From: Candidatus Moraniibacteriota bacterium
Lineage (GTDB): Bacteria; Patescibacteriota; Minisyncoccia; Moranbacterales; GCA-2747515
Assembly: GCA_002747515.1 (NCBI GenBank)
Contig: PDPP01000016.1
Coordinates: 50,369-114,368, forward strand
Length of the DNA stretch: 64,000 bases
Reading direction: 5' to 3'
Made by a program: the position numbers and the translations under genes. Positions 2,583 to 48,842 of the stretch are shown here, one piece after another. The notes beneath the pieces were generated by a model. That model had not been told where the DNA came from. It searched no databases and saw only the letters and a list, made by a program, of their open reading frames with translations. The stretch's first letter is position 1. The number at the start of each line of letters is the position of its first letter.

Positions 2583-3905
2583 ATGTTAGATATTAAATAT
2601 ATTCGTGGAAATGCGGATAAAGTACAAAAGGCAGCGGAAAATAAAAATATTGAAATTGATGTGAAAAAATTTCTCATTCTTGATCAAGAGCGTGTTGGTT
2701 TGATAAAAGAAATAGAGGCTTTACAGGAGAAAAAAAATAAAATTAATACACAAATTAAAGAAGCATGTAATGATCAAGAGCGAAAAAAAATTATTGCAAA
2801 AGGAAAAGAGATAAAGGAAAAAATTGATGTTGTGAAATTACAGGTAAAAGATATCGAAGAAAGATACAACACTTTGATTAAAAAAATACCAAATATCCCA
2901 ACAGAAGATACACCAATTGGAAAAACGGAAGATGAAAATGTTGTTGTTTATGAATGGGGTAAAAAACCAGAATTGAAATTTGATGCAAAAAATCATTGGG
3001 AATTAGCACAAAATAATGATTGGATTGATAAAGAGCGTGCTGCAAAAGTGACAGGGGCGCGTTTTGCTTATCTTAAAGGAGACTTGGTGATATTGCAATT
3101 AGCACTTATGCAATACGTAATGGACACATTAACTGATGAAGAAAAAATTGCAGAAATTGTAAATCATTTTGATGTCGGTGATATTGAAACAAAACCATTT
3201 ACGCCAGTATTTCCACCATTTATGATTCGTACAGAGATGTTTGATGCAATGGACCGACTTGAACCACGAGATGATCGTTATAAGATCGAGGGTGAGGATT
3301 TGTGGTTACAAGGTTCTGCAGAACATGTTCTTGGCGCATTGCATTGTAATGAAATTCTTAATGAAGAAGATTTGCCTTTTCGATACATTGGGTATGCAAC
3401 AAGTTTTCGTAGGGAAGCTGGCACATATGGTAAAGATATGGAAGGAATTATTCGTATGCATCAGTTTGATAAATTGGAAATGGAAATAATTGCAACACCA
3501 GAACAAGGACTTAATGAGCATTTTTTGACAATTGCTGTACAGGAATATTTATTGAGAAATCTAAAATTGCCATATAGAAAATTATTGAAATGTACAGCAG
3601 ATATTGGTAAACCAAATGTACGTGGAGTTGATATGGATGTTTGGCTTCCAGGTCAAAAAGCGTATCGTGAGACACATACAGCTGATTATATGACTGATTA
3701 TCAATCTCGACGATTAAAAACGCGTGTGCGTTTGGCGGATGGCACATTGGCATATGTTCATACAATTGATGCAACTGCGTTTGCATGTGGTCGTGCATTG
3801 GTTGCAATTTTGGAAAACTTCCAACAAACAGACGGAAGTGTTGTAGTGCCAGAAGCGTTGCGACCATATATGTCTGGTGGAAAAGATAAAATTACAAAAA
3901 AGTAA
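2583..3905 (+). CDS. serS: seryl-tRNA synthetase
   Basis: MLDIKYIRGN start, N-terminal coiled-coil arm, class II core; 440 aa. Confidence 0.93.
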   Translation: MLDIKYIRGNADKVQKAAENKNIEIDVKKFLILDQERVGLIKEIEALQEKKNKINTQIKEACNDQERKKIIAKGKEIKEKIDVVKLQVKDIEERYNTLIKKIPNIPTEDTPIGKTEDENVVVYEWGKKPELKFDAKNHWELAQNNDWIDKERAAKVTGARFAYLKGDLVILQLALMQYVMDTLTDEEKIAEIVNHFDVGDIETKPFTPVFPPFMIRTEMFDAMDRLEPRDDRYKIEGEDLWLQGSAEHVLGALHCNEILNEEDLPFRYIGYATSFRREAGTYGKDMEGIIRMHQFDKLEMEIIATPEQGLNEHFLTIAVQEYLLRNLKLPYRKLLKCTADIGKPNVRGVDMDVWLPGQKAYRETHTADYMTDYQSRRLKTRVRLADGTLAYVHTIDATAFACGRALVAILENFQQTDGSVVVPEALRPYMSGGKDKITKK

Positions 3906-12401: not shown

Positions 12402-12418
12402 TTTTATTTTAATGAAAA

Positions 12419-12452
12419 GCTCGTGTTTTTTTAGTAAATCATGAGCTTTTTT
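12419..12452 (+). terminator. intrinsic terminator after the DsbA-like gene
   Basis: gctcgtg ... catgagc hairpin followed by tttttt. Confidence 0.5.
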
Positions 12453-12488
12453 ATTTACTTTTTCTGTAAAGTAATGTATAATTATTTT

Positions 12489-12738
12489 CACGAGGCCTTT
12501 GAAGCTGTTGACACAGTGGAGGCGGAGGAAGAAATTTATCTTTTGATAAAGAGTAGAACCTCACGGGAGTGCCCGTTATAGCATAAAAAGAGTGGGTGGT
12601 TCAAAGAATATGAATCATTAATTACGGTGGTACCGCGGTTGTAAAAATCGTCCGTTGAGAACAAAGTATTTGTTCTTGTCGGACGATTTTTATTGTCTTC
12701 CGTTCATTATTATCTTGTTAGCAATTAATAATATACTT
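12489..12738 (+). promoter_or_regulatory. T-box riboswitch leader of aspS
   Basis: Canonical T-box sequence aattacggtggtaccgcgg at 12620-12638, followed by an 11-bp terminator hairpin (aaaatcgtccg ... cggacgatttt, 12644-12694) whose 5' arm abuts the T-box; a -10-like tgtataat lies at 12475-12482; GAC-A at 12509-12512 is a candidate Asp specifier. Confidence 0.8.
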
Positions 12739-14514
12739 ATGTTACGAACACATACGTGTGGAGAATTATCACAAAAAAATATTGGAGAAAAAGTTACATT
12801 GTCAGGATGGGTACATCGTCGTCGTGATCATGGTGGTGTAATTTTTATTGATCTCAGGGATCGTTATGGTGTGACACAGATTAAATTTGATCCAGATACT
12901 GATGCATGTGTGCACGTCGATGCAGATGCTTTGAGAAGTGAATGGGTAATTCAAGTTAAAGGTGAAGTAATCGGACGACCAAAAGACATGATCAATGAAA
13001 AGATTTCTACTGGAGAGATTGAAATTGTAGTTAATCAGCTTATTGTTCTCAATAAATCAAAGACGCCTCCATTTGAGATCGGTGATGAAAAAGTTGCAGA
13101 GGCAGGTGAGCATATTCGTCTTAAATATCGTTATGTTGATCTTCGACGCAAAAAGATTCAAGAGCTTCTTCAGCAAAAAGATGAATTTATAAAAGATATG
13201 CGTGCATTTTTTCATGCACGAAATTTTCAAGAGGTGCAAACGCCATTGCTTGCAAACTCTTCACCAGAAGGAGCGCGTGATTGGCTTGTTCCATCTCGAT
13301 TGTATAATGGTAAGTTTTATGCATTGCCTCAAGCACCACAGCAGTTTAAACAACTTTTGATGGTTGGTGGTATTGATCGATATTTTCAAATTGCACCGTG
13401 TTTTCGTGATGAAGATCCGCGTATGGATCGACATTTTGGAGAGTTTTATCAATTAGATTTTGAGATGAGTTTTGTTGAGCAGGAGGATATTTTTGCCCTT
13501 ATGCAAGAATTGTGGATTGATTTAACAGAAAAACACAGTGATAAAGAGATTGTAAATAAAGAATTTCCACAGATTACGTGGAAAGATGCAATGAACAAAT
13601 ATGGGACAGATAAACCAGATCTTCGATTCGATCTTAAAATTAAAAATATATCTGAGATTGTTACTGAATGTGAATTTGGCGTATTTACAAATGCTATAGA
13701 AAATGGTGGCGTTGTACATGCGCTCAAAGTCGATGATGGATCACAATTTTCTCGCAAAGATATTGATGATCTCACAAACCTTGCTGGAACAAAAGGTGCA
13801 AAGGGTCTCGCGTACATTATTGTAAAAGATGACGGAGAACTTCAATCGCCAATTGTAAAATTTCTTGGCGAAGATGTTTCTAGTAAAATTATTTCTACAG
13901 TGAATGCGCGACCTGGTGATATTGTATTTTTTGGTGCAGATCAATGGCGTATAGTATGTGAATCTCTGGGTGTTGTGCGTGATAAATGTGGTGAGATGCT
14001 TGGTTTTAAGGACGATGCAAAGGCAGCATGGGTATGGATTATTGATTTTCCCATGTATGATTATTCTGAAATTGAGGAGGGGAAAATTGATTTTTCTCAT
14101 AATCCATTTTCTATGCCACAGGGTGGCATGAAATCACTGAAGGAAGATAATCCTCTCGAAATTGTTGCTTATCAATTCGATCTTATATTAAATGGATTTG
14201 AGATTTCTAGTGGCGCAATTCGCAATCATGATCCAGAGATTATGTACAAAGCATTTGAGATTGCTGGATATACAAAAAAACAAGTAAAAGAGCGATTTGG
14301 ACACATGATTAATGCATTTGAATATGGTGCGCCACCACATGGAGGGAGTGCTCCTGGTATTGATCGCGCATTTATGGTTCTTAAAAATTGTAATTCTATT
14401 CGAGATATTTATGCATTTCCCAAAGATGGTCAAGGACGTGATGTGATGATGGATTCACCGTCATTTGTTGATCAAGCACAGCTTGATGAATTGGGATTGA
14501 AGATTATTGACTAG
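12739..14514 (+). CDS. aspS: aspartyl-tRNA synthetase
   Basis: MLRTHTCGEL...GWVHRRRDHGGVIFIDLRD anticodon-binding OB fold plus class II core; true start at ATG 12739 (track ORF 12655 extends into the leader). Confidence 0.93.
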   Translation: MLRTHTCGELSQKNIGEKVTLSGWVHRRRDHGGVIFIDLRDRYGVTQIKFDPDTDACVHVDADALRSEWVIQVKGEVIGRPKDMINEKISTGEIEIVVNQLIVLNKSKTPPFEIGDEKVAEAGEHIRLKYRYVDLRRKKIQELLQQKDEFIKDMRAFFHARNFQEVQTPLLANSSPEGARDWLVPSRLYNGKFYALPQAPQQFKQLLMVGGIDRYFQIAPCFRDEDPRMDRHFGEFYQLDFEMSFVEQEDIFALMQELWIDLTEKHSDKEIVNKEFPQITWKDAMNKYGTDKPDLRFDLKIKNISEIVTECEFGVFTNAIENGGVVHALKVDDGSQFSRKDIDDLTNLAGTKGAKGLAYIIVKDDGELQSPIVKFLGEDVSSKIISTVNARPGDIVFFGADQWRIVCESLGVVRDKCGEMLGFKDDAKAAWVWIIDFPMYDYSEIEEGKIDFSHNPFSMPQGGMKSLKEDNPLEIVAYQFDLILNGFEISSGAIRNHDPEIMYKAFEIAGYTKKQVKERFGHMINAFEYGAPPHGGSAPGIDRAFMVLKNCNSIRDIYAFPKDGQGRDVMMDSPSFVDQAQLDELGLKIID

Positions 14515-20354: not shown

Positions 20355-21590
20355 ATGAATAAGAAGGATGTGAAAGTAAAGACAGATTCATACAAGGGTG
20401 TACGCGATTTTTATCCAAAGGAGTGGCGATTTCAGAAATGGCTTTTTTGGCAAATGGCAGAGGTGTGTGAGCGGTTTGGGTATGAGAATTATGCTGCTTC
20501 TCCTTTGGAATATACAGAATTATTTGAGGCAAAATCAGGAAAGGAAATTATAGAAAATGAAACATATAATCTCGTAGATCGTGGTAATCGCAATGTAACA
20601 TTGCGTCCTGAGATGACGCCTACAATTGCACGTATGATTGCAGCAAAAGGTGTAGAGATCCCACGACCAATTCGTTGGTATTCGATTCCAAATCTTTTTC
20701 GTTATGAGCGACCGCAAAAAGGGCGACTTAGAGAACACTATCAGTTAAATGTGGATATTTTTGGCATTGTTGGAATTGAGGCGGAGATTGAAGTGATTGA
20801 AGTGGGTGTAGAAATTATGAAGAATCTTGGTGCAGAGGAGAATGATTTTGAGATTCGTGTTAATAATCGCAAGATTATGAATGCGCTTTTTACACGATTT
20901 ACTACAGATGAAGATGCAGTGTACGAACTATCAAAACTTATTGATAAGAAAAAAAAGATTTCAACAGATAATTTCACGACTGCAGTTGAAAAGATTTTAG
21001 GTGAAAAAGCTTCAGAGTTTATCTCTGTGATTGAGAAGTTTAGTTTGGAAAACTGTATAACATTTGCCAATGCGGAAGATATCGAAAAAACAAAAAAATT
21101 ATTAAATACACTTCGAGCAAAAGGTATGAAAAATGTGATTTTTGATTTAACATTAATGCGAGGATTTGATTATTATACAGAAATTGTTTTTGAGTTTTTT
21201 GATACAGATCCAAAAAATAATCGTTCAATGTTTGGCGGTGGTCGTTATGATGATCTTCTTGATATTTTTGGCAAAGAAAAAGTGCCAGCTGTCGGATTTG
21301 GAATGGGAGATGTCACAGCGAAAAATTTTGTTGAATCACGAAATCCTAAAATGCTTGAGCAAGTATCAAAAACTGATGTTTTTATTGCTGTTGAGTCAGA
21401 AGGTCTTATCGAAAATGCAGATGGTATTGCAAAAAAAATGAGAGAAGATGGGAAAAATGTTGAAGTTGATTATAGTTTTAGAAAAATTGATCGTCAGATA
21501 CATTCTGCTGAAAGGAAAGGAATAAAAAAGGTGATTGTTGTCGAACAGCGTGGTGTGCGAGAAGTGGATTTGGTTGCACTGAATAATTGA
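20355..21590 (+). CDS. hisS: histidyl-tRNA synthetase
   Basis: YKGVRDFYPKEW, RWYSIPNLFRYERPQKGRLREHYQLNVDIFG and the anticodon-binding domain. Confidence 0.9.
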   Translation: MNKKDVKVKTDSYKGVRDFYPKEWRFQKWLFWQMAEVCERFGYENYAASPLEYTELFEAKSGKEIIENETYNLVDRGNRNVTLRPEMTPTIARMIAAKGVEIPRPIRWYSIPNLFRYERPQKGRLREHYQLNVDIFGIVGIEAEIEVIEVGVEIMKNLGAEENDFEIRVNNRKIMNALFTRFTTDEDAVYELSKLIDKKKKISTDNFTTAVEKILGEKASEFISVIEKFSLENCITFANAEDIEKTKKLLNTLRAKGMKNVIFDLTLMRGFDYYTEIVFEFFDTDPKNNRSMFGGGRYDDLLDIFGKEKVPAVGFGMGDVTAKNFVESRNPKMLEQVSKTDVFIAVESEGLIENADGIAKKMREDGKNVEVDYSFRKIDRQIHSAERKGIKKVIVVEQRGVREVDLVALNN

Positions 21591-24668: not shown

Positions 24669-25901
24669 ATGAAACAATCACAACTTTTTACAAAAACGCA
24701 AAAATTTGCACCAAAAGATGAAACAAGTAAAAATGCACAATTGCTAATACGTGCAGGTTTTGTACACAAAGAAATGGCTGGTGTATATAGTTTTTTACCA
24801 TTAGGGTGGCGTGTGATGAATAAAATTATGCACATTATTCGTGAGGAAATGAATGCAATTGACGCACAAGAAATGTTTATGTCCTCTATTCAATCACAAG
24901 AGAATTGGGAAAAAACTGGTCGGTGGAGTGACGAGGTAGTGGATGTGTGGTTTAAAACAAAATTAAAAAATGGAACTGATGTTGGTTTGGCTTTTACACA
25001 TGAAGAAGCAATTACAAATATCATGAAAAACTATATTGCTTCTTATAAAGATTTGCCATTTAGTGCATATCATTTTCAGACAAAATTTCGTAATGAAGTG
25101 CGTGCAAAAAGTGGTGTGATGCGCAGTAGAGAATTTATCATGAAAGATTTGTATTCGTTTATGCGCACACAAGAAGAACATGATGTATTTTATGAAAAAG
25201 CAAAGCAGGCATATATTAATGTATTTGATCGATTAGGAATTGGTGAACAAACATTTGTAACATTTGCGTCAGGTGGAACGTTTAGTAAATATTCTCATGA
25301 GTTTCAAACAGTGTGTGATGCGGGAGAAGATATTATTTATATTAGTGATGAAAAGGGAATTGCGATAAATGAAGAGGTGTATAACGATGAAGTGCTTGCA
25401 GATCTCGGACTGAAAAAAGAAGAATTACGAAAAGAAAAGACTGCAGAGGTTGGAAATATTTTTTCACTTGGCACGAAGTTTTCTGATGGATTTGATTTGG
25501 TATATCGAGATAGTGATGAGAAAAATCATAAAGTGATTATGGGTTCTTATGGCATTGGTCCAGCAAGGTGTATGGGTGTTTTAGTGGAACTTCTTTCTGC
25601 AGAAGAAAAAATGATTTGGCCAAAGGCAGTGTCTCCATTTGATGTGCATCTTATAAGCTTAAATCAAAACGAAAAAGCAAATGAAGTTTATGAAAGATTG
25701 GTACAGGCTGGGGTAGATGTGCTTTATGATGATCGTGATATGCGCTCAGGAGAAAAATTGACTGACGCAGATCTTATAGGATGCAATAAGCGTATTGTTC
25801 TTGGGAAAAATTCACTTGTTAATGGTGTTGTTGAGTTTAGCAGGGGAGGTACGGATATCAAAGAAGTAAAATTTGATGAAATTCCTACATTATTTATGTA
25901 A
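24669..25901 (+). CDS. proS: prolyl-tRNA synthetase, short form lacking the INS editing domain
   Basis: LLIRAGFVHKEMAGVYSFLPLGWRVMNKIMHIIREEM with class II motifs; 410 aa. Confidence 0.85.
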   Translation: MKQSQLFTKTQKFAPKDETSKNAQLLIRAGFVHKEMAGVYSFLPLGWRVMNKIMHIIREEMNAIDAQEMFMSSIQSQENWEKTGRWSDEVVDVWFKTKLKNGTDVGLAFTHEEAITNIMKNYIASYKDLPFSAYHFQTKFRNEVRAKSGVMRSREFIMKDLYSFMRTQEEHDVFYEKAKQAYINVFDRLGIGEQTFVTFASGGTFSKYSHEFQTVCDAGEDIIYISDEKGIAINEEVYNDEVLADLGLKKEELRKEKTAEVGNIFSLGTKFSDGFDLVYRDSDEKNHKVIMGSYGIGPARCMGVLVELLSAEEKMIWPKAVSPFDVHLISLNQNEKANEVYERLVQAGVDVLYDDRDMRSGEKLTDADLIGCNKRIVLGKNSLVNGVVEFSRGGTDIKEVKFDEIPTLFM

Positions 25902-29196: not shown

Positions 29197-29922
29197 TTGT
29201 CATTGAGTATGTCACAAAAAAATGATGTGTACGTTTTTGGTGTCAGTGTGAATAATGTCTCTTATGATATAATTTTAGAAACAATCACTCAATTTTTGAA
29301 AAGTTCTACATATCATCATATCGTCACACTTAATCCAGAAATTTTATTAAAAGCGTACAAATCTTTTCAGTACAAAAAAATATTAAATGACGCTGCTCTT
29401 GGTGTTGTAGATGGTATCGGATTGTATATTGCATTGTGGCGACGCGGTAAAAAACTGCACACACGTATTACAGGTGTAGATCTTATGCATGAAGTTTTGA
29501 AAAGAGTTGATGATTGCTCCGGAAAAGTATTTTTAGCAGCACATATAGATGGATTGAGTTCATGGACAGAAACAAAAAACAGTCTTGAGGTACGTTATCC
29601 CCATATTATATTTTCTGGAAATGATATTGATCCACGTGACGTAAATTATAATCATATTTCTGTTGATGTTATTTTATGCAATTTTGGTGCACCTGAACAG
29701 GAAATTTTTTTGAGCAAAATGCAAAATACAAATGCAAAAATTGGTATTGGTGTAGGTGGTGCATTTGATTTTGTTACAGGTGTTGTACCTCGAGCGCCAC
29801 GATGGATGCGTACATGGGGTCTAGAATGGCTTTATAGATTATATAAACAACCACGACGCTTTAAGAGAATTTATAATGCAGTTATTGTATTTCCACTGAA
29901 AGCATTGTGGAATAATAAATGA
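29197..29922 (+). CDS. WecB/TagA/CpsF family glycosyltransferase
   Basis: VVDGIGL ... GVGGAFDFVTGVVPRAPRWMRTWGLEWLYRLYKQPRR is the family signature. Confidence 0.75.
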   Translation: MSLSMSQKNDVYVFGVSVNNVSYDIILETITQFLKSSTYHHIVTLNPEILLKAYKSFQYKKILNDAALGVVDGIGLYIALWRRGKKLHTRITGVDLMHEVLKRVDDCSGKVFLAAHIDGLSSWTETKNSLEVRYPHIIFSGNDIDPRDVNYNHISVDVILCNFGAPEQEIFLSKMQNTNAKIGIGVGGAFDFVTGVVPRAPRWMRTWGLEWLYRLYKQPRRFKRIYNAVIVFPLKALWNNK

Positions 29923-31439
29923 TAAATAATATAAAGATTATGGCAGAAGAAAAAAAAGATGTTCGTGTACGTTTTGCACCATCGCCAACAGGAGAATTGC
30001 ATATTGGTGGTTTGCGTACAGCACTTACAAATTATCTTTTTGCAAAGAAAAATAATGGCACATTTATTTTGCGAAGTGAAGATACTGATCAGGGACGTTT
30101 TGTAGATGGTGCAGCAAAAAGACAAATTATAGATATGGTGTGGTCTGGCATCACTATTGATGAAGGTGTTGTAATTGATGATAATGGTGATTTAACAGAA
30201 ATTGGTGAATATGGACCATATATACAATCAAAACGTCTTGATATTTATAAAAAATATGTAGAACAACTTCTTGATGAAAAAAAAGCATATCATTGTTTTT
30301 GCACACCGGAGCGCTTACAAGAAATGCGACAAAACCAACAAGCAAATAAAAAAGCGCCAAAATATGATCGCCATTGCTTACATTTCTCAGAAGATGAGGT
30401 GCAAAAACGAATTGAAAGAGGAGAAAAATATGTTGTACGATTTAAGATTCCAGAAGGGAAGACGGCCTTTGATGATTTGGTATACGGGCACATTGTAGTG
30501 GAAAATGATACGCTTGATGATCAAGTAATTATGAAGTCAGATGGATTTCCGACATATCATCTCGCAGTTGTGATAGATGATTATTTGATGAAGATTTCGC
30601 ATGTTTTTAGAGGTGCTGAGTGGATTGCAAGTACACCAAAACACATTTTGCTTTATCAGGCGCTAGGATGGGCAGAAGAAACACCAATCTTTTGTCATAT
30701 GGCAAATATCCTTGATAAAAGCAAAAAGAAACTGTCAAAACGCGACGGTAGTGTGTCAGTAGCAGATTTTCGTAAAGAAGGATATTCTAAGCAAGCCATT
30801 ATCAATTTCATTGCACTTTTGGGCTGGAATCCAAAAACAGAACAAGAGATTTTTAACATGGATGAACTGATCGCACAATTTGATACAGAGAAAATGAACA
30901 AAGCAGGTGGCGTTTTTGATCGTGACCGACTTGCATGGATATCAAAAGAACATATGAAAAAAATGTCTGTTGATGAAATTTATGAAAATGCATTGCCATT
31001 TTTACAAGAAAAAGAATTCTATAAAAATGCATCTGAAGAACAAAAATCAGAAGAGTATATTAAAAAACTTATTACAGTAGAACACGATCGTTTAGAAAAA
31101 TTCACTGACATTGGTGAAGAAAATCAATTTTTCTTTGCACAAGAAATTGTATGTGACAAAGAACTTGTACGCTGGAAAGAAAACAGTGATGCAAAAACAC
31201 AGGAAGCACTGGAAAATGCAAAAGAAGTGTTGTCACACATTGATGAAAATGATTGGACACGTGAGATGCTCGAGAAAAAACTCATGGAAGCAGCAGGTGA
31301 AAAACGCGGAGATTTCCTCTGGCCACTACGCGTTGCACTCACAGGAGAAAAACGCTCACCAAGCCCATTTGACTGCGCATGGGTGCTCGGGAAAGATGAA
31401 ACACTACAACGCATAAAAAACACGTTGCATATAATATAA
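29919..31439 (+). CDS. gltX: glutamyl-tRNA synthetase
   Basis: RFAPSPTGELHIGGLRTAL (HIGH) and KLSKRDGS (KMSKS); 506 aa. Confidence 0.92.
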   Translation: MINNIKIMAEEKKDVRVRFAPSPTGELHIGGLRTALTNYLFAKKNNGTFILRSEDTDQGRFVDGAAKRQIIDMVWSGITIDEGVVIDDNGDLTEIGEYGPYIQSKRLDIYKKYVEQLLDEKKAYHCFCTPERLQEMRQNQQANKKAPKYDRHCLHFSEDEVQKRIERGEKYVVRFKIPEGKTAFDDLVYGHIVVENDTLDDQVIMKSDGFPTYHLAVVIDDYLMKISHVFRGAEWIASTPKHILLYQALGWAEETPIFCHMANILDKSKKKLSKRDGSVSVADFRKEGYSKQAIINFIALLGWNPKTEQEIFNMDELIAQFDTEKMNKAGGVFDRDRLAWISKEHMKKMSVDEIYENALPFLQEKEFYKNASEEQKSEEYIKKLITVEHDRLEKFTDIGEENQFFFAQEIVCDKELVRWKENSDAKTQEALENAKEVLSHIDENDWTREMLEKKLMEAAGEKRGDFLWPLRVALTGEKRSPSPFDCAWVLGKDETLQRIKNTLHII

Positions 31440-31662
31440 GACAACATATGTATATACCATCTTTTGAAAAACTAGTATCACAAAACGAGGTATATCAAAA
31501 AAACTTTGATCAATTTGCAAATGAAAGTGACGTTTTTAATGTATTTGCACAATTATATTTTTAAACCTACTTTTTATTGCACAGCTAATTTGCAAAACAT
31601 ATGGTAAAAATGCTTTTGTGAAAGATATCATATCAGGTTTGGTTCGACGCCTCTAAATACAT

Positions 31663-31693
31663 ACACTACGTAGTATAGTAGTGTGTGGTTTTT
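31663..31693 (+). terminator. orphan intrinsic terminator-like hairpin
   Basis: acactac gtagtata gtagtgt followed by gtgg ttttt; ~230 nt downstream of gltX with no ORF in between. Confidence 0.35.
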
Positions 31694-31990
31694 ATTTGGA
31701 AGTATTTGATTTTGTCACAATGTGTTATGGATATCGTTGGATATTTTGACGTGTGAGTTTTAGACTGTGTGAGGGTGTGCAGAATGTACGATTTCTCTTG
31801 GATATAATGTGCTTATGAATAAAAAGATTTCTTCTTATTTATAAAAAATCTGAAGCACAGAGATTGTGGTAGATGTCATCAATAATATCTTTGTGGTAAA
31901 GCAAAACCGCTCTTGTAATTGCCTATGGAGAGATCTCTGGGTTATCAATATTATGATGTTTTCAGCACGCTCCATGTGAAAAAATGCGTA

Positions 31991-32344
31991 TTAGTTCACT
32001 TTTCGAAATGCGACGCTATATGTTGGCTCATAAAGATTATCATATTCATCACGTACTTCTACAGTTTCACCATCCATCATTGTTGAAAGAGAAATGTCTG
32101 ACATCATTTCTTGGAGAGATTTTATTTCACCTTTGAGTTCTTCAAGTTTTTCCCAACGCATGCCCATATCACGTTGTGCACTAAGCTCATGTTGTTTTTT
32201 AATTTCTCGAAGATCATGTAATTTTTCTATAATTTCTTGATATTTTACATCTTGTACTAAGACGTCTTTATATTCTTTGCGAATTTCTTTCATTTCCTTT
32301 TTTGCCTCTTGCATTTCATTAAAAACTTCTTGCACATCTTTCAT
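31991..32344 (-). CDS. coiled-coil hypothetical protein
   Basis: 117 aa, K/E-rich heptad-like N-terminal region, short beta-rich C-terminus; no family. Confidence 0.4.
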   Translation of the reverse strand: MKDVQEVFNEMQEAKKEMKEIRKEYKDVLVQDVKYQEIIEKLHDLREIKKQHELSAQRDMGMRWEKLEELKGEIKSLQEMMSDISLSTMMDGETVEVRDEYDNLYEPTYSVAFRKVN

Positions 32345-32517
32345 ATATTTTTTAATTAGTATTTATATATACAAAAAATATTATAGCACATAACTGTAGG
32401 GGAGTGGATACTTTAATAAAAAAAAGAGTAATAATATTTTTTTAGAAATTACCGCAAAGTATATATATCATTGTATACAGGACTTTTTATTTTGTAAAAA
32501 TAATTGTAATAATTTTT

Positions 32518-32531
32518 TTATGTCGCACAAT
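32518..32531 (+). repeat. half-site copy (ttatgtcgcacaat) of the dif-like arm
   Basis: Exact 14-mer shared with the copy at 32793 and with both arms of the 33078-33105 palindrome. Confidence 0.6.
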
Positions 32532-32792
32532 ATAAGTAGTATATTTTTCAATTTAATAAGGGGAATATGTGTATAATATAAAATGTAAAAAATATTTGTA
32601 ATATATAGTATTTGTTAAAAACAAAAAAAATTTAAAATAAATTTATGATGAAAATTTTTTATGATGCAAGTCAAAAAATAATAAATTTTTATAAAAAACG
32701 CAATATATTGATATATAAATATACAAATAATAAAATAAGCACAATAAGTTGTAATTTTTCGCATACTATAAGGTATAAATATATTACTTATT

Positions 32793-32806
32793 TTATGTCG
32801 CACAAT
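32793..32806 (+). repeat. half-site copy (ttatgtcgcacaat) of the dif-like arm
   Basis: Same 14-mer, 275 bp from the first copy and 283 bp from the palindrome. Confidence 0.6.
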
Positions 32807-33077
32807 GTATCATCTCTTTTTTAAAGAATGATGGAAAGTTATAACACATATTATCAATCATATAACCTTAACACAAACGGTAAGATCCTAAAATAAGTTT
32901 AGGATGAAAAAAAATGTCTTTGGTTTTATATTATAAAATAGTATTAATTGATTATCATAATGAAAAATGATTATTGATTATACGATAAAAAACAAAGCTA
33001 GGTATCTATACTATATGTAGTAATAAAAACTTAATAAAACACTGTAATATACAAGGTATAGTTGTATATTATATGTT

Positions 33078-33105
33078 ATGTCGCATAATATACATTGTGC
33101 GACAT
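33078..33105. repeat. dif-like Xer recombination site (11-bp arm / 6-bp centre / 11-bp arm palindrome)
   Basis: atgtcgcataa-tataca-ttgtgcgacat. The reverse complement gives ATGTCGCACAA-TGTATA-TTATGCGACAT against E. coli dif GGTGCGCATAA-TGTATA-TTATGTTAAAT: identical central TGTATA and ~20/28 identities overall. It sits in a 1.1-kb AT-rich gene desert at the gene-orientation switch. Confidence 0.55.
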
Positions 33106-33450
33106 ATTATATAAAAATATAATATTTCCCATTTTTCTCTCATTATTACATATATAAAAAATACTTTCGTCTGTACATTTATATAAAAAAGGTGCTCTAC
33201 TACGAAGAAGCTTACATTGTGTCTACACGGTATAATTATGCATTTTATCAACATTGTAGATATACACGCATATATTCAAAAAATTTTTTCTTTTTTTCAT
33301 AAATTTTTCTTTTTCATTTTTATATTGAATAGTAATTTATTTTTTTCAGTATAAAATAGGTGATTAACTCAAAAATTGTTCTCACTTCCCTTTTAGAAAT
33401 TTATACTAAAAAAGACCACTATGCATTATAGCGATCTTTATTCTGAAAAA

Positions 33451-33882
33451 TTATTTTTCAGGTATTTTTTTGCAAAAAAATGTTGTGTTAACTTTAGCGA
33501 ATCCATATTTTTTGTACAGTCCTTGTGCAGCTGCACGGGATTCATGACTTGTTAATTCAACTTGATTTGTTCGAGGATGTCTCATAGCCGCTTCTAGAAG
33601 TTCTTTCATCAATTTATCTCCATAACCATTACCACGTTCATCCTCGTGTACGACAATGTCATTTAATACTGTAATCCAACCGCGTGATTGTGCATAGTAT
33701 TTTGAAAGAGATCCATAAGCAATGATCTTTCCGCTTTTTTCCCCGACAAGACAAAGAATGGGCAACTTTCTCAATTCTTCGACAGTTTTTAATAAACATG
33801 CGTTTGGAGAAAGCTGCTTTAATAACTCATTAATTTCGTCACAAAAATCATCGTCATTGAGTAATCTAATCTTCACTTTCAA
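33451..33882 (-). CDS. GNAT family N-acetyltransferase
   Basis: VHEDERGNGYGDKLMKEL acetyl-CoA binding motif. Confidence 0.75.
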   Translation of the reverse strand: MKVKIRLLNDDDFCDEINELLKQLSPNACLLKTVEELRKLPILCLVGEKSGKIIAYGSLSKYYAQSRGWITVLNDIVVHEDERGNGYGDKLMKELLEAAMRHPRTNQVELTSHESRAAAQGLYKKYGFAKVNTTFFCKKIPEK

Positions 33883-44481: not shown

Positions 44482-46836
44482 TTATTTTTTTATTTGTATA
44501 TTTTCTTGTTCAAGTTTTTTGATAATTTTTGTCATTTTTTGATCTACTTCTTCCGTTGTAAGTGTACGATCTTGTGTACCAAATACAATATGAAATGCCA
44601 TAGACCGTTCTTCATTTTCAGAATTTTCATAGAGATCAAACAAATCAACATCATGTGTTAAATTGCCACCCGCATCATAAATTAAACGTTCTACATCAGC
44701 TACACGTGTTTGTCTCTCTACAATCAAAGAAATATCGCGTGCAACAAATGGATATCGTGACAATGGTTCAAAGAAATTTTCTGATTGTACGTTTTGAAGT
44801 AATTGTGTAATATCTATTTCACATATTGCTGCTCGATTTTTTTTCAATCCAAAATATTTGTTTGCTTTTTTATCCACTTCTCCAATCCAACCTAAAACCG
44901 AACCATCTTCTGTTTTGATTAAAGCTCTGCGTGATGGATGAAGATTTGGTATATTATTTTCATTAGCGTCAAATACATCATCAAAATAATAGACTCCTAT
45001 ATTTATATGTGCAAAAAGTGTTTCCAATACACCTTTCAATTCATAAAATTGTGATGCATCATCTCCTTTGTGCACAGCTGTTGCGCCAAACATAAGTCGT
45101 TCATCTGGTAATGAAGAATCTGTTGGGTCATAAATACGTCCAATTTCACATATTTGTACACAATCAAAATAACTCAAATTCTTTTTTGCAAAATGCAGTA
45201 GCGTCGGCACAAGACTACGACGCATAATTGCTTGTTCAGGATTCATTGGATTGATCAGAGAAATATGTTTTTCATCATCGAGTCCCATTGCTCGTGCATC
45301 ATCTACAGCATAAAACGAATATCCGCGAACCTCATTAAATCCATTATGTACAAAGACATCTTTAAGTATTCGTTCAAAAAATCTTTTTTCATTGCGAACA
45401 GGTGTTTGCACTTTTTCTTTCAGAGATTTTTTTTCAATTTTATCATAGCCATAAATACGTCCAATTTCTTCTATAAGATCTTCTGCTGTGCGTAAATCCA
45501 ATCGCATTGTTGGCGGTGTAACAATCACACAGTCTTCATTATCAACTAGCTCAGCACCAAGACTTGTAAGAATGTGTAAAATATCATCACGTGCAATTTC
45601 AACACCAAGTAACTTTGTCACCTTATCTAAAGAAAGTTCAATTGACCATTTTTTTTGTGGTCGTGGATATTTGTCAGTATATGCTGTCACTGTACCACCG
45701 CAAATTTCTTCAAATAACTCTTTAGCTCTCACTGCTCCTGCAAGTGCAACATTTGCATCAAGGTTACGTTCAAAACGATATGCTGCATTAGTATGTAAAT
45801 TATATTTTCTTTGTGTAAATCGTACACTTGTTGCATTAAAAGAAGCACTTTCAAGAATAATATTTTTTGTATCATCTGAAATACTGCTATCTTTGCCACC
45901 CATTACACCTGCTAACGCTACTGTTCGATCATTTTCTGTGATAACGATATCTTCATCATCCAAAGAAACTTTTGTATCATCAAGTAAAATTAACTTTTCA
46001 TCATTATGTGCTTGTCGCACACCAATATTATGTACTTTATCTGCATCAAATGCATGTAATGGTTGGCCTGTTTCGAGCATGACATAATTTGTGATATCTA
46101 CAACTGTATTAATTGATTGAATATCAGATGCAGCTAGACGCACTTTGAGCCATCCTGGAGATTCCATAACTTGCACATCTTCAATCTTCATGCCAATATA
46201 TCGATTACACCTTTCTGTATCAATTGTAATGTCGATATTATCATCAATTTTTGGCATTGACACATCAGTAGGTATTAATTCACGATTTTCAAGTGTCCGA
46301 ATTTCATTTGCCATACCAATATATGATAAAGCATCATGTCCGCGATTTGGTAAAATATCAATTTCCAAAATACTATCATTCAATCCAGCATATTCTACAA
46401 ATTTTTCACCAATAGGTGCATTATCTTCCAGCACCATAATTCCCTCATGATCAGTTCCGATACCTAGTTCATCCTCTGCACAAATCATTCCGTTAGACTC
46501 TACGCCACGGATTTTGCTTTTTTTAATTTTGAATTCTCCTGGCAGTACAGATCCTGCAAGAGCAACGACAACCTTCTGCCCCACCTCAAGATTTGGTGCA
46601 CCACAAACAATTTGCAATTTTTCTTCACCTATATCGACAGTTGCTACATGTAATTTATCTGCACCTGGATGTTTTTCTTTTGCAAGTATTTCTCCAATCA
46701 CAACTTTTTTTAATCCTTTTGAGAGGTCTTCTACACCTTCTACTTCAAAACTATGCGTCAGAAGCATCTCTGCTATTTCATCCACATTTTTCTCCGTCTC
46801 ACTCAATTCTTTGAGCCATTTGTAACTATATTTCAT
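44482..46836 (-). CDS. pheT: phenylalanyl-tRNA synthetase beta subunit
   Basis: MKYSYKWLKEL...tRNA-binding OB, B3/B4 and B5 domains; 784 aa. Confidence 0.92.
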   Translation of the reverse strand: MKYSYKWLKELSETEKNVDEIAEMLLTHSFEVEGVEDLSKGLKKVVIGEILAKEKHPGADKLHVATVDIGEEKLQIVCGAPNLEVGQKVVVALAGSVLPGEFKIKKSKIRGVESNGMICAEDELGIGTDHEGIMVLEDNAPIGEKFVEYAGLNDSILEIDILPNRGHDALSYIGMANEIRTLENRELIPTDVSMPKIDDNIDITIDTERCNRYIGMKIEDVQVMESPGWLKVRLAASDIQSINTVVDITNYVMLETGQPLHAFDADKVHNIGVRQAHNDEKLILLDDTKVSLDDEDIVITENDRTVALAGVMGGKDSSISDDTKNIILESASFNATSVRFTQRKYNLHTNAAYRFERNLDANVALAGAVRAKELFEEICGGTVTAYTDKYPRPQKKWSIELSLDKVTKLLGVEIARDDILHILTSLGAELVDNEDCVIVTPPTMRLDLRTAEDLIEEIGRIYGYDKIEKKSLKEKVQTPVRNEKRFFERILKDVFVHNGFNEVRGYSFYAVDDARAMGLDDEKHISLINPMNPEQAIMRRSLVPTLLHFAKKNLSYFDCVQICEIGRIYDPTDSSLPDERLMFGATAVHKGDDASQFYELKGVLETLFAHINIGVYYFDDVFDANENNIPNLHPSRRALIKTEDGSVLGWIGEVDKKANKYFGLKKNRAAICEIDITQLLQNVQSENFFEPLSRYPFVARDISLIVERQTRVADVERLIYDAGGNLTHDVDLFDLYENSENEERSMAFHIVFGTQDRTLTTEEVDQKMTKIIKKLEQENIQIKK

Positions 46837-46932
46837 ATATTATTGGTTTGTAATTAAAAAAATAAAAAAATATCTATATAAAATTTTTCGCAAAATATCT
46901 GATACATTTCATTTTACTTTTTATTTTTTCAC

Positions 46933-47754
46933 TTATACCGTGTAATTTGCTAATTGATGTATCTCCACAAGCCAGGCAATCAGAAAAAATAATATCGTCA
47001 GAAGCGGAATTAACTTACTATTATAAATCCTTGCTAAAGAAAAAAGTGGGATGAGAAGAGGGTGTGTTTCTGTATAATCACGATACATATATTCTCGTAA
47101 TTTTGGAATGAGAAAACAAAAAAATACAAAAGCACTTATAAATGCTAAAACATACCAACAAACTACAGACAAAGGTTGCAACATAAAAAAACCACTAACC
47201 AATAAAGGCAAAAAGAGAAATAAAACACGGAATTGATGATGCCATAAATAATGCCATAAAATAATGCGGTTTTCTTTTTGTAGAAGAGACCGAAAAACCA
47301 TATAGAAAAATATAATGTATATAGTTAAAAAAACAGAATATAATATTATTTTCATTATACTAAAAGCATCATCTAAACCTAGAGTAAATTGAATTACGAA
47401 TCCATTAACAGCATCAATAAGAAATATCAATAAAAAGCAAATTGATATAACACCACGAATAATATTAGGAATTTTAGCATCTCTTCTTCCAACAATAGGT
47501 AATATCACTATAAAAAGAGGAAATATTATCATGAAACTAAATAAACCTCCAAAACTCATCCACCAACCATTGTATGCAAAAAAATTCAGATAAAAAGTAG
47601 CCCAAAAAGAAATAAACACGGTCAACCCCACTAAAAAAATATTCAAAAAAGTTTTTAAAGGATGCTTTTCTTGATTAATTTGAATAATATCTTGATATTT
47701 AAGATATTGATCTTCTTTTTCATTTATTACGTTTTCTTTTTGCGCATTATTCAC
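46933..47754 (-). CDS. polytopic membrane protein inserted between pheS and pheT
   Basis: About 8 predicted TM helices, W/F-rich; no family. Confidence 0.45.
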   Translation of the reverse strand: MNNAQKENVINEKEDQYLKYQDIIQINQEKHPLKTFLNIFLVGLTVFISFWATFYLNFFAYNGWWMSFGGLFSFMIIFPLFIVILPIVGRRDAKIPNIIRGVISICFLLIFLIDAVNGFVIQFTLGLDDAFSIMKIILYSVFLTIYIIFFYMVFRSLLQKENRIILWHYLWHHQFRVLFLFLPLLVSGFFMLQPLSVVCWYVLAFISAFVFFCFLIPKLREYMYRDYTETHPLLIPLFSLARIYNSKLIPLLTILFFLIAWLVEIHQLANYTV

Positions 47755-47807
47755 ATTATATAGTTTATATTGTTATAAATATTTCATGCTACTATTTTTT
47801 GTATATT

Positions 47808-48842
47808 CTAAAATTGTTGTGTAAATCGCACGTCTCCACTGTGAAATAATCGAATATCATTAATTTTATATTTCATCATTGCAAGGCGCTCCAAGCCAAA
47901 TCCCCATGCAAACCCTTGATATTTTCCTTTCTCATGCCCAGCCGCTGCAAAGACGTTTTGATGCACCATGCCACATCCACCTACCTCAAGCCATCCTGTT
48001 TGTGAACATGTACTGCATCCCTTTCCTTCACAATTTGTACATGAAATATCAAATTCAAATCCTGGCTCTACAAATGGAAAATAACTCGGTCTCAATCGTA
48101 CATTAATTTTTTGTCCAAAAAATTTCTCAAAAAATTTTTCTGCGATATAGAGAAAATTTGCTACACTCACATCTTTACCAGCAACAAGTGCTTCAAATTG
48201 ATGAAAAGTATGTTCATGTGACGCATCTGTTGCTTCATTACGAAATGTGCGTCCTGGTACAATAATACGAAGTGGCGGAGTGTGTGTTTCCATGTAACGC
48301 ACTTGCACAGATGATGTTTGCGTTCTTAGTACAGTACCAGTTCCTTTTTCACGCCCTTCTTCGCGAGAAATCCAAAATGTATCTTGCATATCACGACCTG
48401 GATGATCATCCGGCATATTTATTGCATCAAAATTGTAGAATTCTGTTTCTATTTCTGGTCCGTCAACAATTTCAAATCCCATTGTTGTGAAAATATCTTC
48501 AATATCTCTTTGCACAATACTCAATGGATGCAAATGTCCTTGAACTCTTCGTACACCTGGCGCAGTAACATCAATCCATTCTGCGTTTCTATCAATAGAT
48601 AATTCTAATTCATTTTTTTTCTCTTCAATTGCATTTTGAATATCTTTTTTTGCCTGGTTTGCTAGTGGACCAATTTCTTTTTTCTCTTCAGTTGAAAGGT
48701 TTTTGAGTCCCTTAAGAATTGCGTTGAATGCACTCTTTTTGCCCAAATACGCTACACGTATCTTTTCAACTGTTTCAATAGTTTCAGCTGTAACAATCTT
48801 TTTCAATGCATCACCTTTAATTGCAGATATTTTTTCCTTCAT
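47808..48842 (-). CDS. pheS: phenylalanyl-tRNA synthetase alpha subunit
   Basis: HPLSIVQRDIEDIFTTMGFEIVDGPEIE ... FRNEATDASHEHTFHQFE class II motifs. Confidence 0.92.
   Translation of the reverse strand: MKEKISAIKGDALKKIVTAETIETVEKIRVAYLGKKSAFNAILKGLKNLSTEEKKEIGPLANQAKKDIQNAIEEKKNELELSIDRNAEWIDVTAPGVRRVQGHLHPLSIVQRDIEDIFTTMGFEIVDGPEIETEFYNFDAINMPDDHPGRDMQDTFWISREEGREKGTGTVLRTQTSSVQVRYMETHTPPLRIIVPGRTFRNEATDASHEHTFHQFEALVAGKDVSVANFLYIAEKFFEKFFGQKINVRLRPSYFPFVEPGFEFDISCTNCEGKGCSTCSQTGWLEVGGCGMVHQNVFAAAGHEKGKYQGFAWGFGLERLAMMKYKINDIRLFHSGDVRFTQQF

What the first reader, a model, noticed from the sequence alone, without database searches (positions are those of the whole stretch)
12489..12738. 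T-box riboswitch leader controlling aspS
The canonical T-box sequence AATTAcGGTGGTACCGCGG (12620-12638) is immediately followed by an 11-bp intrinsic terminator (12644-12694) whose 5' arm can alternatively pair with the T-box, forming an antiterminator. A promoter-like -10 lies at 12475-12482. GAC-A at 12509-12512 is a candidate Asp specifier. T-boxes are characteristic of Firmicutes and a few other phyla, so its presence is informative about lineage or gene origin. serS and proS in this window have no comparable leader.
Basis: partly seen in the sequence, partly recalled or inferred. Interest (0 to 1): 0.5.

Follow-up and report, generated by a model that had tools for sequence, protein, structure and literature searches.

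The report
Short-stem T-box riboswitch before aspS
The leader of the aspartyl-tRNA synthetase gene is a real tRNA-sensing T-box riboswitch from a candidate-phyla-radiation (Patescibacteria) bacterium, but an unusual one: it stops transcription with a terminator, yet it has only a tiny first stem, with the Asp codon in its end loop and no tRNA-elbow docking platform.

Summary
Window 12490-12658 (+) matches the Rfam T-box model at E 9e-12 for the whole window. It scores 64.8 bits, below the curated cut-off of 93, because 75 model positions of Stem I are replaced by 5 nt.

Stem I is only a K-turn, a 4-bp helix (G-U plus three Watson-Crick pairs; A12503.G12518 sits between it and the K-turn) and a 6-nt apical loop, UUGACA. 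The canonical distal platform is absent. These parts follow:
- Stem II with an S-turn
- the Stem IIA/B pseudoknot
- Stem III
- the T-box/antiterminator, with bulge UGGUACC
- an overlapping intrinsic terminator with a U run
- aspS, starting at 12739

The same design precedes aspS in about 20 related Patescibacteria loci. Covariation is strong: 20 of 29 pairs carry compensatory changes. Every relative has a terminator, and every one scores below Rfam's cut-off. The loop triplet is always GAC (Asp) or AAC (Asn).

The best explanation is attenuation of aspS transcription by uncharged tRNA-Asp. The decoding module resembles the translational ileS T-boxes of Actinobacteria. I rate it a new variant of a known kind, of moderate to high interest to T-box specialists.

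The parts
12415..12452 (+). Intrinsic terminator of the upstream DsbA-like gene (hairpin GCUCGUG/CAUGAGC plus U run). It makes the aspS leader a separate transcription unit.
   Evidence: Read directly from the sequence. The upstream ORF ends at 12401 and has Thioredoxin_4/DSBA domains.
12454..12482 (+). Sigma-70-like promoter: -35 TTTACT (12454-12459), 17-nt spacer, -10 TATAAT (12477-12482). The inferred transcription start is near 12489-12490.
   Evidence: 10 of 12 consensus matches. The Rfam and R1 matches both begin at 12490. The start site is inferred, not measured.
12495..12523 (+). Ultrashort Stem I. It has a C-stem GCC/GGC (12495-97 with 12521-23), a K-turn (bulge UUU 12498-12500; tandem G12501.A12520 and A12502.G12519; A12503.G12518), a 4-bp helix (G-U plus three Watson-Crick pairs; 12504-07 with 12514-17), and the 6-nt apical loop UUGACA (12508-12513).
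   Evidence: The Rfam alignment deletes 75 Stem I model positions. The same K-turn/helix/NN-RAC-A loop occurs in 15 leaders. Both helices covary.
12510..12513 (+). Specifier GAC (Asp), followed by the conserved purine A12513.
   Evidence: AC-A and the closing G-C pair are invariant, and only the first codon base varies (G or A, giving Asp or Asn) across relatives. The downstream gene is AspRS.
12525..12562 (+). Stem II. The lower helix is GAGG/CCUC, the S-turn (loop E) is AAGAAA opposite GAGUAGAA, and the upper helix is UUUAUC/GAUAAA with a UUUU loop.
   Evidence: All 8 Stem II pairs show compensatory changes. GGAAGAAA and AGUAGAAC are near-invariant.
12563..12584 (+). Stem IIA hairpin (CGGG AGUG CCCG), the F-box CCCGUUA (12572-12578), and the pseudoknot partner CAU (12582-12584) that pairs with loop GUG (12569-12571).
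   Evidence: Stem IIA covaries. Loop and downstream triplets change together at the same positions in relatives: GUG/CAU, GUU/AAC, AUU/AAU, UUUUG/CAAAG, UCAUG/CAUGA. Each single case is too short to be significant on its own.
12595..12619 (+). Stem III (GGUGGUUCA/UGAAUCAUU), preceded by a purine-rich string AAAAAGAG.
   Evidence: minimum-free-energy and centroid folds. Its length varies among relatives and it is absent in L052 and L053.
12620..12655 (+). T-box sequence and antiterminator. Helix A1 is 12624-27 with 12652-55. The 7-nt bulge UGGUACC is at 12628-12634 (UGGU would pair with the tRNA 3' NCCA). Helix A2 is 12635-39 with 12647-51.
   Evidence: A1 and A2 covary in relatives.
12644..12691 (+). 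Intrinsic terminator. The outer arms are 12644/48-12654 with 12680-12686/90, the inner helix is 12657-65 with 12669-77, and the U run is 12687-12691. The 5' arm reuses the 3' strand of the antiterminator.
   Evidence: the terminator fold of 12618-12695 is -32.2 kcal/mol against -4.8 for the antiterminator. An equivalent terminator plus U run is present in all 20 related leaders.
12739..14514 (+). aspS, a bacterial-type aspartyl-tRNA synthetase of 591 aa with OB anticodon-binding, class II core and GAD domains. This is the regulated gene.
   Evidence: Pfam. The same ATG start is called in a public assembly. There is no Shine-Dalgarno sequence upstream.

Best explanation
This is a T-box riboswitch that senses tRNA-Asp and attenuates transcription of aspS.

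Transcription starts near 12490. The nascent leader folds into a compact decoding module made of four parts:
- a K-turn
- a very short Stem I that presents GAC-A in a 6-nt apical loop
- a Stem II whose S-turn braces the codon-anticodon helix from the side
- the Stem IIA/B pseudoknot

tRNA-Asp (anticodon GUC) pairs with GAC. If the tRNA is uncharged, its 3' NCCA end pairs with UGGU in the T-box bulge. That stabilises the weak antiterminator (about -5 kcal/mol), so RNA polymerase reads through into aspS. If the tRNA is charged, the antiterminator cannot be held. The much more stable terminator (12644-12691) forms and transcription stops before aspS.

Shown here: the T-box homology, every helix by covariation, the mutually exclusive terminator, and the specifier position.

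Inferred from the known T-box mechanism, not tested here: tRNA binding, the role of Stem II in compensating for the missing elbow platform, and the actual regulation.
For: - **Rfam match.** Full-length RF00230 match at E 9.1e-12 over the whole window, and the only hit there.
- **Family conservation.** A covariance model built from 13 such leaders scores the window at 133.8 bits. It finds the element upstream of aspS in about 21 of 160 Patescibacteria aspS loci.
- **Covariation.** On a structure-blind MAFFT alignment, 92.3% of cells are paired and 20 of 29 pairs show double changes. The covariation score is 0.641, against 0.228 for shuffles (0 of 500 reach it) and at most 0.201 for slid partners.
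- **Specifier.** The loop is NN-RAC-A in every Stem II-containing member. Only the first codon base varies: GAC (Asp) or AAC (Asn), the two tRNAs that a non-discriminating AspRS can charge. Both codons end in C.
- **Terminator.** All 20 leaders carry a terminator plus U run that overlaps the antiterminator 3' strand. The energies are -32.2 against -4.8 kcal/mol.
- **No SD to sequester.** Neither aspS nor nearly any other gene in the window has a Shine-Dalgarno sequence.
- **Regulated gene.** The downstream gene is AspRS.
- **Precedent.** Short Stem I with an apical-loop specifier, made functional by the K-turn and Stem II, is described for ileS T-boxes (PMC7583486).
Against: - The score is below Rfam's gathering threshold (64.8 against 93).
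- The tRNA-elbow platform is missing. The review literature says transcriptional T-boxes generally require it for fast co-transcriptional tRNA capture (PMC7583486).
- No tRNA-Asp gene is available from this genome, so neither the anticodon nor the discriminator base could be checked.
- The bulge reads UGGU. The only related tRNA recovered, a tRNA-Asn in L107, has G73, which would give a G.U wobble rather than a Watson-Crick pair.
- There are no expression data.
Confidence: 0.85

Rival explanations
1. It is a canonical Firmicute-type T-box. It has a full-length Stem I with an internal specifier loop and a distal tRNA-elbow platform, as the reader implicitly assumed, and it indicates a Firmicute lineage or gene origin.
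For: The T-box sequence, Stem II, the pseudoknot, Stem III, the antiterminator and the terminator are all canonical.
Against: - The Rfam alignment replaces 75 Stem I model positions with 5 nt, and the score falls below the gathering threshold.
- The promoter leaves only about 5 nt upstream of Stem I, so no extra stem can be hidden there.
- The closest AspRS genes (58-78% identity) are from Patescibacteria. The same short leader occurs in Moraniibacteriota, Falkowbacteria, Doudnabacteria and Paceibacteria MAGs.
Confidence: 0.03
2. It is a translational T-box like the actinobacterial ileS class. The 3' hairpin would act as a sequestrator of the ribosome-binding site and not as a transcription terminator.
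For: The decoding module (ultrashort Stem I with apical specifier, K-turn, Stem II, pseudoknot) is the architecture so far described for translational T-boxes (PMC7583486).
Against: - The hairpin is GC-rich at its base and is directly followed by 5-8 U in all 20 members.
- It ends 47 nt before the aspS start codon in the window, and 15-180 nt before it in relatives, so it cannot mask the start region.
- There is no Shine-Dalgarno sequence before aspS or before almost any other gene in the window.
Confidence: 0.05
3. It is a decaying, non-functional remnant of a T-box. It lost the distal Stem I, and aspS is now expressed constitutively or simply attenuated.
For: The elbow platform, reported as essential for transcriptional T-boxes, is missing. 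The leader also scores below Rfam's threshold.
Against: - The same truncated design is kept in about 20 lineages whose AspRS proteins are only 51-78% identical.
- Compensatory changes occur in every helix, and the AC-A loop positions are invariant.
- A dead T-box with an intact -32 kcal/mol terminator would shut off an essential gene.
Confidence: 0.05
4. The element responds to tRNA-Asn or to both tRNA-Asp and tRNA-Asn. The enzyme would be a non-discriminating AspRS feeding the GatCAB route to Asn-tRNA.
For: Most relatives carry AAC (Asn) at the same loop position upstream of the orthologous aspS. From memory, the AspRS has His in the RRRDHGG motif, like known non-discriminating enzymes; this was not tested here.
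Against: The window's own specifier is GAC, which gives three Watson-Crick pairs only with the Asp anticodon GUC. A G.U pair at the first codon position with the Asn anticodon GUU is not normally accepted by T-boxes (strict Watson-Crick preference, PMC7778990).
Confidence: 0.07

Closest known systems
Canonical transcriptional T-box leaders of Firmicutes (Rfam RF00230; for example B. subtilis tyrS, and the hisS-aspS operon leader)
   Same: Both have a K-turn at the base of Stem I and a specifier followed by a purine. Both have a Stem II with an AGUA/GAA S-turn, a Stem IIA/B pseudoknot with F-box, and a Stem III. Both carry the 14-nt T-box sequence with a UGGNACC bulge and an antiterminator that competes with an intrinsic terminator. 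Both regulate an aminoacyl-tRNA synthetase gene matching the specifier.
   Different: Stem I here is about 29 nt instead of about 85-100 nt. It has no internal specifier loop, no AG bulge and no distal loop, so no interdigitated T-loop platform for the tRNA elbow. The specifier is in the terminal loop. The score is below Rfam's gathering threshold. The host is a Patescibacteria/CPR bacterium.
Translational ileS T-boxes of Actinobacteria with ultrashort or short Stem I (M. smegmatis, M. tuberculosis, N. farcinica; Sherwood et al. 2015; PDB 6UFG and 6UFM as cited in PMC7583486)
   Same: Both have an ultrashort Stem I with the specifier mounted in an apical loop and followed by a purine. Both lack the elbow platform. 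[quoted passage not shown]
   Different: The expression platform here is an intrinsic terminator with a U run, not a Shine-Dalgarno sequestrator. The gene is aspS (specifier GAC, or AAC in relatives), not ileS (AUC). The phylum is different, and the genome has essentially no Shine-Dalgarno sequences.
Asn-specific T-box upstream of aspS2-gatCAB in Clostridium acetobutylicum (Saad et al. 2012, recalled from memory and not read here; one of three aspS copies in that species is T-box regulated, PMC2494555)
   Same: It shows that a T-box in front of an AspRS gene can carry an Asn rather than an Asp specifier, as in most relatives of this leader.
   Different: That element has a canonical long Stem I. 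The window's own specifier is Asp (GAC).

Membership tests
T-box leader (RF00230), broad family | Conserved T-box sequence AGGGUGGNACCGCG forming the 5' side of an antiterminator with a 7-nt bulge UGGNACC | tested here: met
   ACGGUGGUACCGCG is at 12624-12637 with the bulge at 12628-12634. The single G-to-C difference is compensated in helix A1. It is invariant or covarying in 13 relatives.
T-box leader (RF00230), broad family | Mutually exclusive terminator (or sequestrator) that reuses the antiterminator 3' strand | tested here: met
   The terminator at 12644-12691 shares 12647-12655 with the antiterminator. The energies are -32.2 against -4.8 kcal/mol. The same arrangement holds in all 20 relatives.
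T-box leader (RF00230), broad family | Stem I with a basal K-turn (GA motif) and a specifier triplet followed by a purine, matching the regulated gene | tested here: met
   The K-turn spans 12498-12503 with 12518-12520. GAC-A is at 12510-12513, and the gene is AspRS. The specifier is in an apical loop, not an internal loop.
T-box leader (RF00230), broad family | Score at or above Rfam's curated gathering threshold (93 bits) | tested here: not met
   The window scores 64.8 bits. All 19 relatives score 35.6-73.7 bits. The E-values are nonetheless 1e-11 to 3e-4.
T-box leader (RF00230), broad family | Binding of the cognate uncharged tRNA through anticodon-specifier and NCCA-UGGN pairing | not testable with these tools
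   No tRNA gene is present in the window or in the T-box-bearing loci. One related tRNA-Asn (L107) has G73 and an encoded CCA.
Canonical transcriptional (class I) T-box | Long Stem I with an internal specifier loop, AG bulge and distal loop forming the tRNA-elbow platform (IDTM) | tested here: not met
   75 Stem I model positions are replaced by 5 nt. The hairpin is closed by a 6-nt loop in all Stem II-containing members. The promoter leaves no room upstream.
Canonical transcriptional (class I) T-box | Stem II with S-turn, Stem IIA/B pseudoknot with F-box, and Stem III | tested here: met
Actinobacterial translational (class II) ileS T-box | Ultrashort Stem I with an apical-loop specifier, no IDTM, and dependence on the K-turn and Stem II | tested here: met
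   The architecture is met. Functional dependence on Stem II was not tested. The family description comes from PMC7583486.
Actinobacterial translational (class II) ileS T-box | Anti-sequestrator/sequestrator controlling access to a Shine-Dalgarno sequence | tested here: not met
   The hairpin is followed by a U run and ends 47 nt before the start codon. There is no SD before aspS or before other genes.
Actinobacterial translational (class II) ileS T-box | Located upstream of ileS with an Ile (AUC) specifier, in Actinobacteria | tested here: not met
   The gene is aspS and the specifier is GAC. The closest relatives are Patescibacteria.

The most novel reading that the evidence does not exclude
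This leader and about 20 relatives may define an uncatalogued T-box class with these properties:
- It acts by transcription termination, yet it decodes tRNA with only a K-turn hairpin whose apical loop carries the specifier, plus Stem II. It has no tRNA-elbow platform.
- It is confined, so far, to aspS of Patescibacteria/CPR, a group with no literature record of T-boxes that I could find.
- It toggles between Asp (GAC) and Asn (AAC) specifiers.
- It is systematically missed by Rfam's threshold.

If it functions as read, elbow docking is not a requirement for co-transcriptional T-box decisions. That contradicts the current generalisation that short Stem I goes with translational control.
Probability: 0.5. 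Interest if true: 0.72.

Novelty: new variant of a known kind. Interest (0 to 1): 0.62.

Why it matters
- **It tests a current generalisation.** The T-box field holds that transcriptional T-boxes need the long Stem I and its elbow-binding platform to capture tRNA fast enough. Short, apical-specifier Stem I's are thought to belong to translational T-boxes, which have no time limit (PMC7583486). This leader and its relatives pair the short decoding module with a clear intrinsic terminator, in organisms that barely use Shine-Dalgarno sequences. That gives a natural, compact test case of about 200 nt for whether elbow docking is dispensable in co-transcriptional sensing.
- **It extends the known range of T-boxes.** T-box regulation now reaches Patescibacteria/CPR.
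- **It exposes an annotation gap.** The whole class lies under Rfam's cut-off, so standard annotation will miss it.
- **It links regulation to tRNA-charging pathways.** The Asp/Asn specifier switch upstream of one orthologous aspS ties the element to indirect Asn-tRNA synthesis in reduced genomes.

Tried and rejected
- **Default Rfam gathering scan of the window.** It returned no hits. It would have wrongly refuted the finding, and the permissive scan was needed.
- **tRNA searches.** ARAGORN was run on the window and on about 130 related loci to obtain tRNA-Asp and check its anticodon and discriminator base. No tRNA-Asp was found, only one tRNA-Asn in L107.
- **Literature searches.** Searches pairing T-box with Patescibacteria, Candidate Phyla Radiation, Parcubacteria or Saccharibacteria returned nothing. 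Four primary or comparative papers could not be read because they are not held: Sherwood 2015, Sherwood 2018, Battaglia 2019 and Vitreschak 2008. Their content is cited only through the review PMC7583486. Absence of prior description therefore rests on an incomplete library.
- **Pseudoknot significance per sequence.** Each 3-5 bp pairing is too short to beat shuffles. Only the positional covariation across relatives supports it.
- **Extended -10 promoter element.** Rejected. TG directly abuts TATAAT without the one-base spacer.
- **The TTG at 12655 that opens the listed ORF as the aspS start.** Rejected. It lies inside the terminator. The ATG at 12739 gives the conserved MLRTHxCGEL N-terminus and is the start called in a public assembly.
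- **Hidden distal Stem I or another elbow-binding element.** The Stem II tip is a plain UUUU-capped helix whose length varies among relatives, so it offers no conserved T-loop-like motif.

Full report

The sequence at 12620-12638 reads AATTACGGTGGTACCGCGG. It is followed by the arms AAAATCGTCCG (12644-12654) and CGGACGATTTT (12680-12690) and a T run ending at 12691. A sigma-70-like promoter, TTTACT-17 nt-TATAAT, lies at 12454-12482. A separate terminator for the upstream DsbA-like gene lies at 12415-12452. The leader is therefore its own transcription unit, starting near 12490.

The default Rfam scan at gathering thresholds found nothing in the whole window. A permissive scan gave a full-length match to RF00230 (T-box) at 12490-12658 on the + strand. 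It scores 64.8 bits against a gathering score of 93. E is 6e-14 on the region and 9.1e-12 on the whole 64-kb window, where it is the only match of any of the 4227 families at E <= 0.05. The element is far beyond chance, but it is sub-threshold for a specific reason. In the alignment, 75 model positions of Stem I are replaced by 5 nt.

**2. Anatomy in the window**

- **Stem I (12495-12523).** It consists of four elements:
  - a three-pair C-stem, GCC/GGC
  - a K-turn, with the 3-nt bulge UUU, tandem sheared G12501.A12520 and A12502.G12519, then A12503.G12518
  - four pairs, one G-U plus three Watson-Crick (12504-07 with 12514-17)
  - a 6-nt terminal loop, UUGACA (12508-12513)
- **Specifier.** GAC is at 12510-12512 and the following purine is at 12513. 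There is no internal specifier loop, no AG bulge and no distal loop. The platform that docks the tRNA elbow in canonical T-boxes is therefore absent.
- **Stem II (12525-12562).** It carries the classical AGUA/GAA S-turn.
- **Stem IIA (12563-12576).** It includes the F-box CCCGUUA. Its loop GUG can pair with CAU at 12582-12584 to form the pseudoknot.
- **Stem III (12595-12619).**
- **Antiterminator.** Helix A1 is 12624-27 with 12652-55. The bulge UGGUACC is at 12628-34. Helix A2 is 12635-39 with 12647-51.
- **Terminator (12644-12691).** Its 5' arm reuses the 3' strand of the antiterminator.
- **Energetics.** The terminator fold of 12618-12695 is -32.2 kcal/mol against -4.8 kcal/mol for the antiterminator. 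This is the usual T-box situation, in which the antiterminator needs tRNA to persist.
- **aspS.** It starts at the ATG at 12739, giving MLRTHTCGEL. The same start is called in a public assembly. The protein is a bacterial-type AspRS with a GAD domain.

**3. Relatives**

The AspRS protein retrieved 160 related loci from genome and metagenome collections. The closest matches, at 58-78% identity, are almost all Patescibacteria/CPR MAGs. They include Moraniibacteriota, Falkowbacteria, Paceibacteria and Doudnabacteria, plus the cultured Minisyncoccus archaeiphilus. A few records carry automated labels that look unreliable. The window is low in G+C (about 34%).

Eighteen sequences, the window included, show a T-box motif 85-280 nt upstream of aspS. 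Fifteen of them share the window's design. It reads: C-stem, 3-nt bulge, UGA...GAG K-turn, a 4-6 bp helix, a 6-nt loop NN-RAC-A closed by an invariant G-C pair, then Stem II, the pseudoknot, usually Stem III, the T-box and a terminator.

A structure-blind MAFFT alignment of 13 leaders gave a consensus fold of 29 pairs, 20 of which carry compensatory double changes. The pair counts on that alignment were:

| Measure | Observed | Control |
|---|---|---|
| Cells forming a standard pair | 92.3% | 71.5% in shuffles |
| Covariation score | 0.641 | 0.228 in shuffles (0 of 500 reach it); at most 0.201 with partners slid by 1-3 columns |

Every helix has pairs with changes on both sides: the Stem I C-stem, the Stem I hairpin, both parts of Stem II, Stem IIA, A1 and A2.

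The pseudoknot is supported by position-matched covariation: GUG/CAU, GUU/AAC, AUU/AAU, UUUUG/CAAAG and UCAUG/CAUGA. Each single case is too short to be significant on its own.

A covariance model built from the alignment (R1) scored the window at 133.8 bits. It found the element only upstream of aspS, in about 21 of the 160 loci, and nowhere else in the window.

All 19 relatives tested against Rfam score 35.6-73.7 bits, below the gathering score of 93. Threshold-based annotation therefore cannot see the whole class.

**4. Specifier**

Across the family, the loop positions AC-A and the closing pair are invariant. Only the first base of the triplet varies.

- **GAC (Asp):** the window, L001, L003, L052 and L053, and also the Falkowbacteria leaders.
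- **AAC (Asn):** L002, L004, L020, L024, L029, L039, L040, L049/L126, L051, L064, L083 and L116.

Asp and Asn are exactly the two tRNA identities that a non-discriminating AspRS charges in organisms that make Asn-tRNA through GatCAB. Both codons end in C, as T-box specifiers typically do. This pattern is hard to explain unless RAC is the specifier. The window's leader should therefore respond to tRNA-Asp (GUC).

The bulge reads UGGU here, and UGGC in many relatives. The only related tRNA I could recover, a tRNA-Asn in L107, has G73 and an encoded CCA. G73 would pair with C, or wobble with U. The tRNA-Asp of this organism was not available, so this pairing remains untested.

**5. Transcriptional or translational?**

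All 20 leaders end in a hairpin whose 5' arm contains the antiterminator 3' strand and which is followed directly by 5-8 U. A script found this in 19, and it is clear by eye in L064. The hairpin ends 47 nt before the start codon in the window, and 15-180 nt before it in relatives.

Neither aspS nor almost any other gene in the window has a Shine-Dalgarno sequence. Sequestering a ribosome-binding site is therefore not a plausible mechanism here. The element is best read as a transcription attenuator.

**6. Comparison with known systems**

The review PMC7583486 makes four relevant statements:
- Disabling that motif abolishes readthrough.
- Ultrashort Stem I's with the specifier "mounted in an apical loop" are features of the translational class, mostly ileS of Actinobacteria.
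- In that class, the K-turn and Stem II become essential for tRNA binding.

[quoted passage not shown] An early survey lists T-boxes only in Firmicutes, Actinobacteria, Chloroflexi, Deinococcus-Thermus and a few Proteobacteria (PMC2494555). I found no paper linking T-boxes with Patescibacteria/CPR. The searchable library is incomplete, and several key papers could not be read.

The window's leader thus works like a T-box and belongs to the broad family. It combines the decoding module of the actinobacterial translational class with the expression platform of the Firmicute transcriptional class. It fails one defining feature of each class: the long Stem I with its platform, and the SD sequestrator.

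**7. Mechanism proposed**

Uncharged tRNA-Asp pairs its anticodon with GAC in the apical loop. The K-turn directs Stem II so that its S-turn braces the codon-anticodon helix, as in the ileS structures. The 3' NCCA end of the tRNA pairs with UGGU and stabilises the antiterminator, so polymerase reads through into aspS. Charged tRNA cannot do this, and the terminator forms.

The following are shown here: homology, all helices, the alternative folds, the specifier position and the identity of the regulated gene. tRNA binding, the compensating role of Stem II and the regulation itself are inferred.

How tRNA capture is fast enough without elbow docking is unexplained. Slow transcription or pausing in these slow-growing organisms is speculation.

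**8. Verdict**

The element is not canonical, and it does not point to Firmicutes. It is a new variant of a known kind, conserved in a phylum-level group where T-boxes appear not to have been described. It bears on an accepted structure-function generalisation in the field. Interest is 0.62.

Noticed in passing
L009:2627-2820, L010:2778-2945, L012:2767-2935 (Falkowbacteria aspS leaders): These are an even more reduced T-box form. A K-turn hairpin carries GUGACA in a larger apical loop and is followed directly by a linker, Stem III, the T-box (UGGC) and a terminator. There is no recognisable Stem II or IIA/B pseudoknot, so both the elbow platform and Stem II are missing. They score 35-46 bits with R1 and 36-39 bits with Rfam.
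   Followed up: partly
window 1-64000 (gene starts listed): Almost no gene in the window has a Shine-Dalgarno sequence. The 25 nt before start codons are A/T-rich with no GGAGG-like motif, which suggests SD-independent translation initiation in this organism.
   Followed up: partly
window 2583-3905, 12739-14514, 20355-21590, 24669-25901, 29919-31439, 44482-48842 (-), 49692-50912 (-): The window has an unusual density of aminoacyl-tRNA synthetase genes, eight in 64 kb: serS, aspS, hisS, a 410-aa class IIa enzyme (possibly proS), gltX, pheT, pheS and tyrS. Only aspS has a T-box.
   Followed up: partly
window about 31500-33500: GC skew is strong (about +0.25) and changes sign near 32 kb. Genes are on the + strand to the left and on the - strand to the right, so they converge. 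This is the pattern expected at a replication terminus.
   Followed up: no
L002:2629-2700: The closest AAC-specifier relative has an extra 28 nt or so between Stem I and Stem II (TCAGAACTATTGCAGTACTGGGCGAGGC). It repeats the ...GAGGC end of Stem I, so it is possibly a partial duplication of Stem I. Model R1 aligns this region ambiguously.
   Followed up: no
L064:2690-2800 and L024, L116 (Stem II or Stem III regions): There are large lineage-specific insertions: about 100 nt in the upper Stem II of the Doudnabacteria leader, and a longer Stem III in L116. L052 and L053 lack Stem III altogether.
   Followed up: no
L001, L006, L007, L014, L015 and other loci listed: Several MAG records whose AspRS is 65-78% identical to this Patescibacteria protein are labelled Micavibrio, Bdellovibrionales, Gammaproteobacteria or Nanoarchaeia. 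These labels are probably wrong (automated or mis-binned taxonomy).
   Followed up: no
window 12739-12840 (AspRS residues 25-35, RRRDHGG): The AspRS has His at the position that, from memory, marks non-discriminating bacterial AspRS (His31 in Pseudomonas, against Leu in E. coli). That fits the Asn specifiers seen in relatives. It was not tested here.
   Followed up: no
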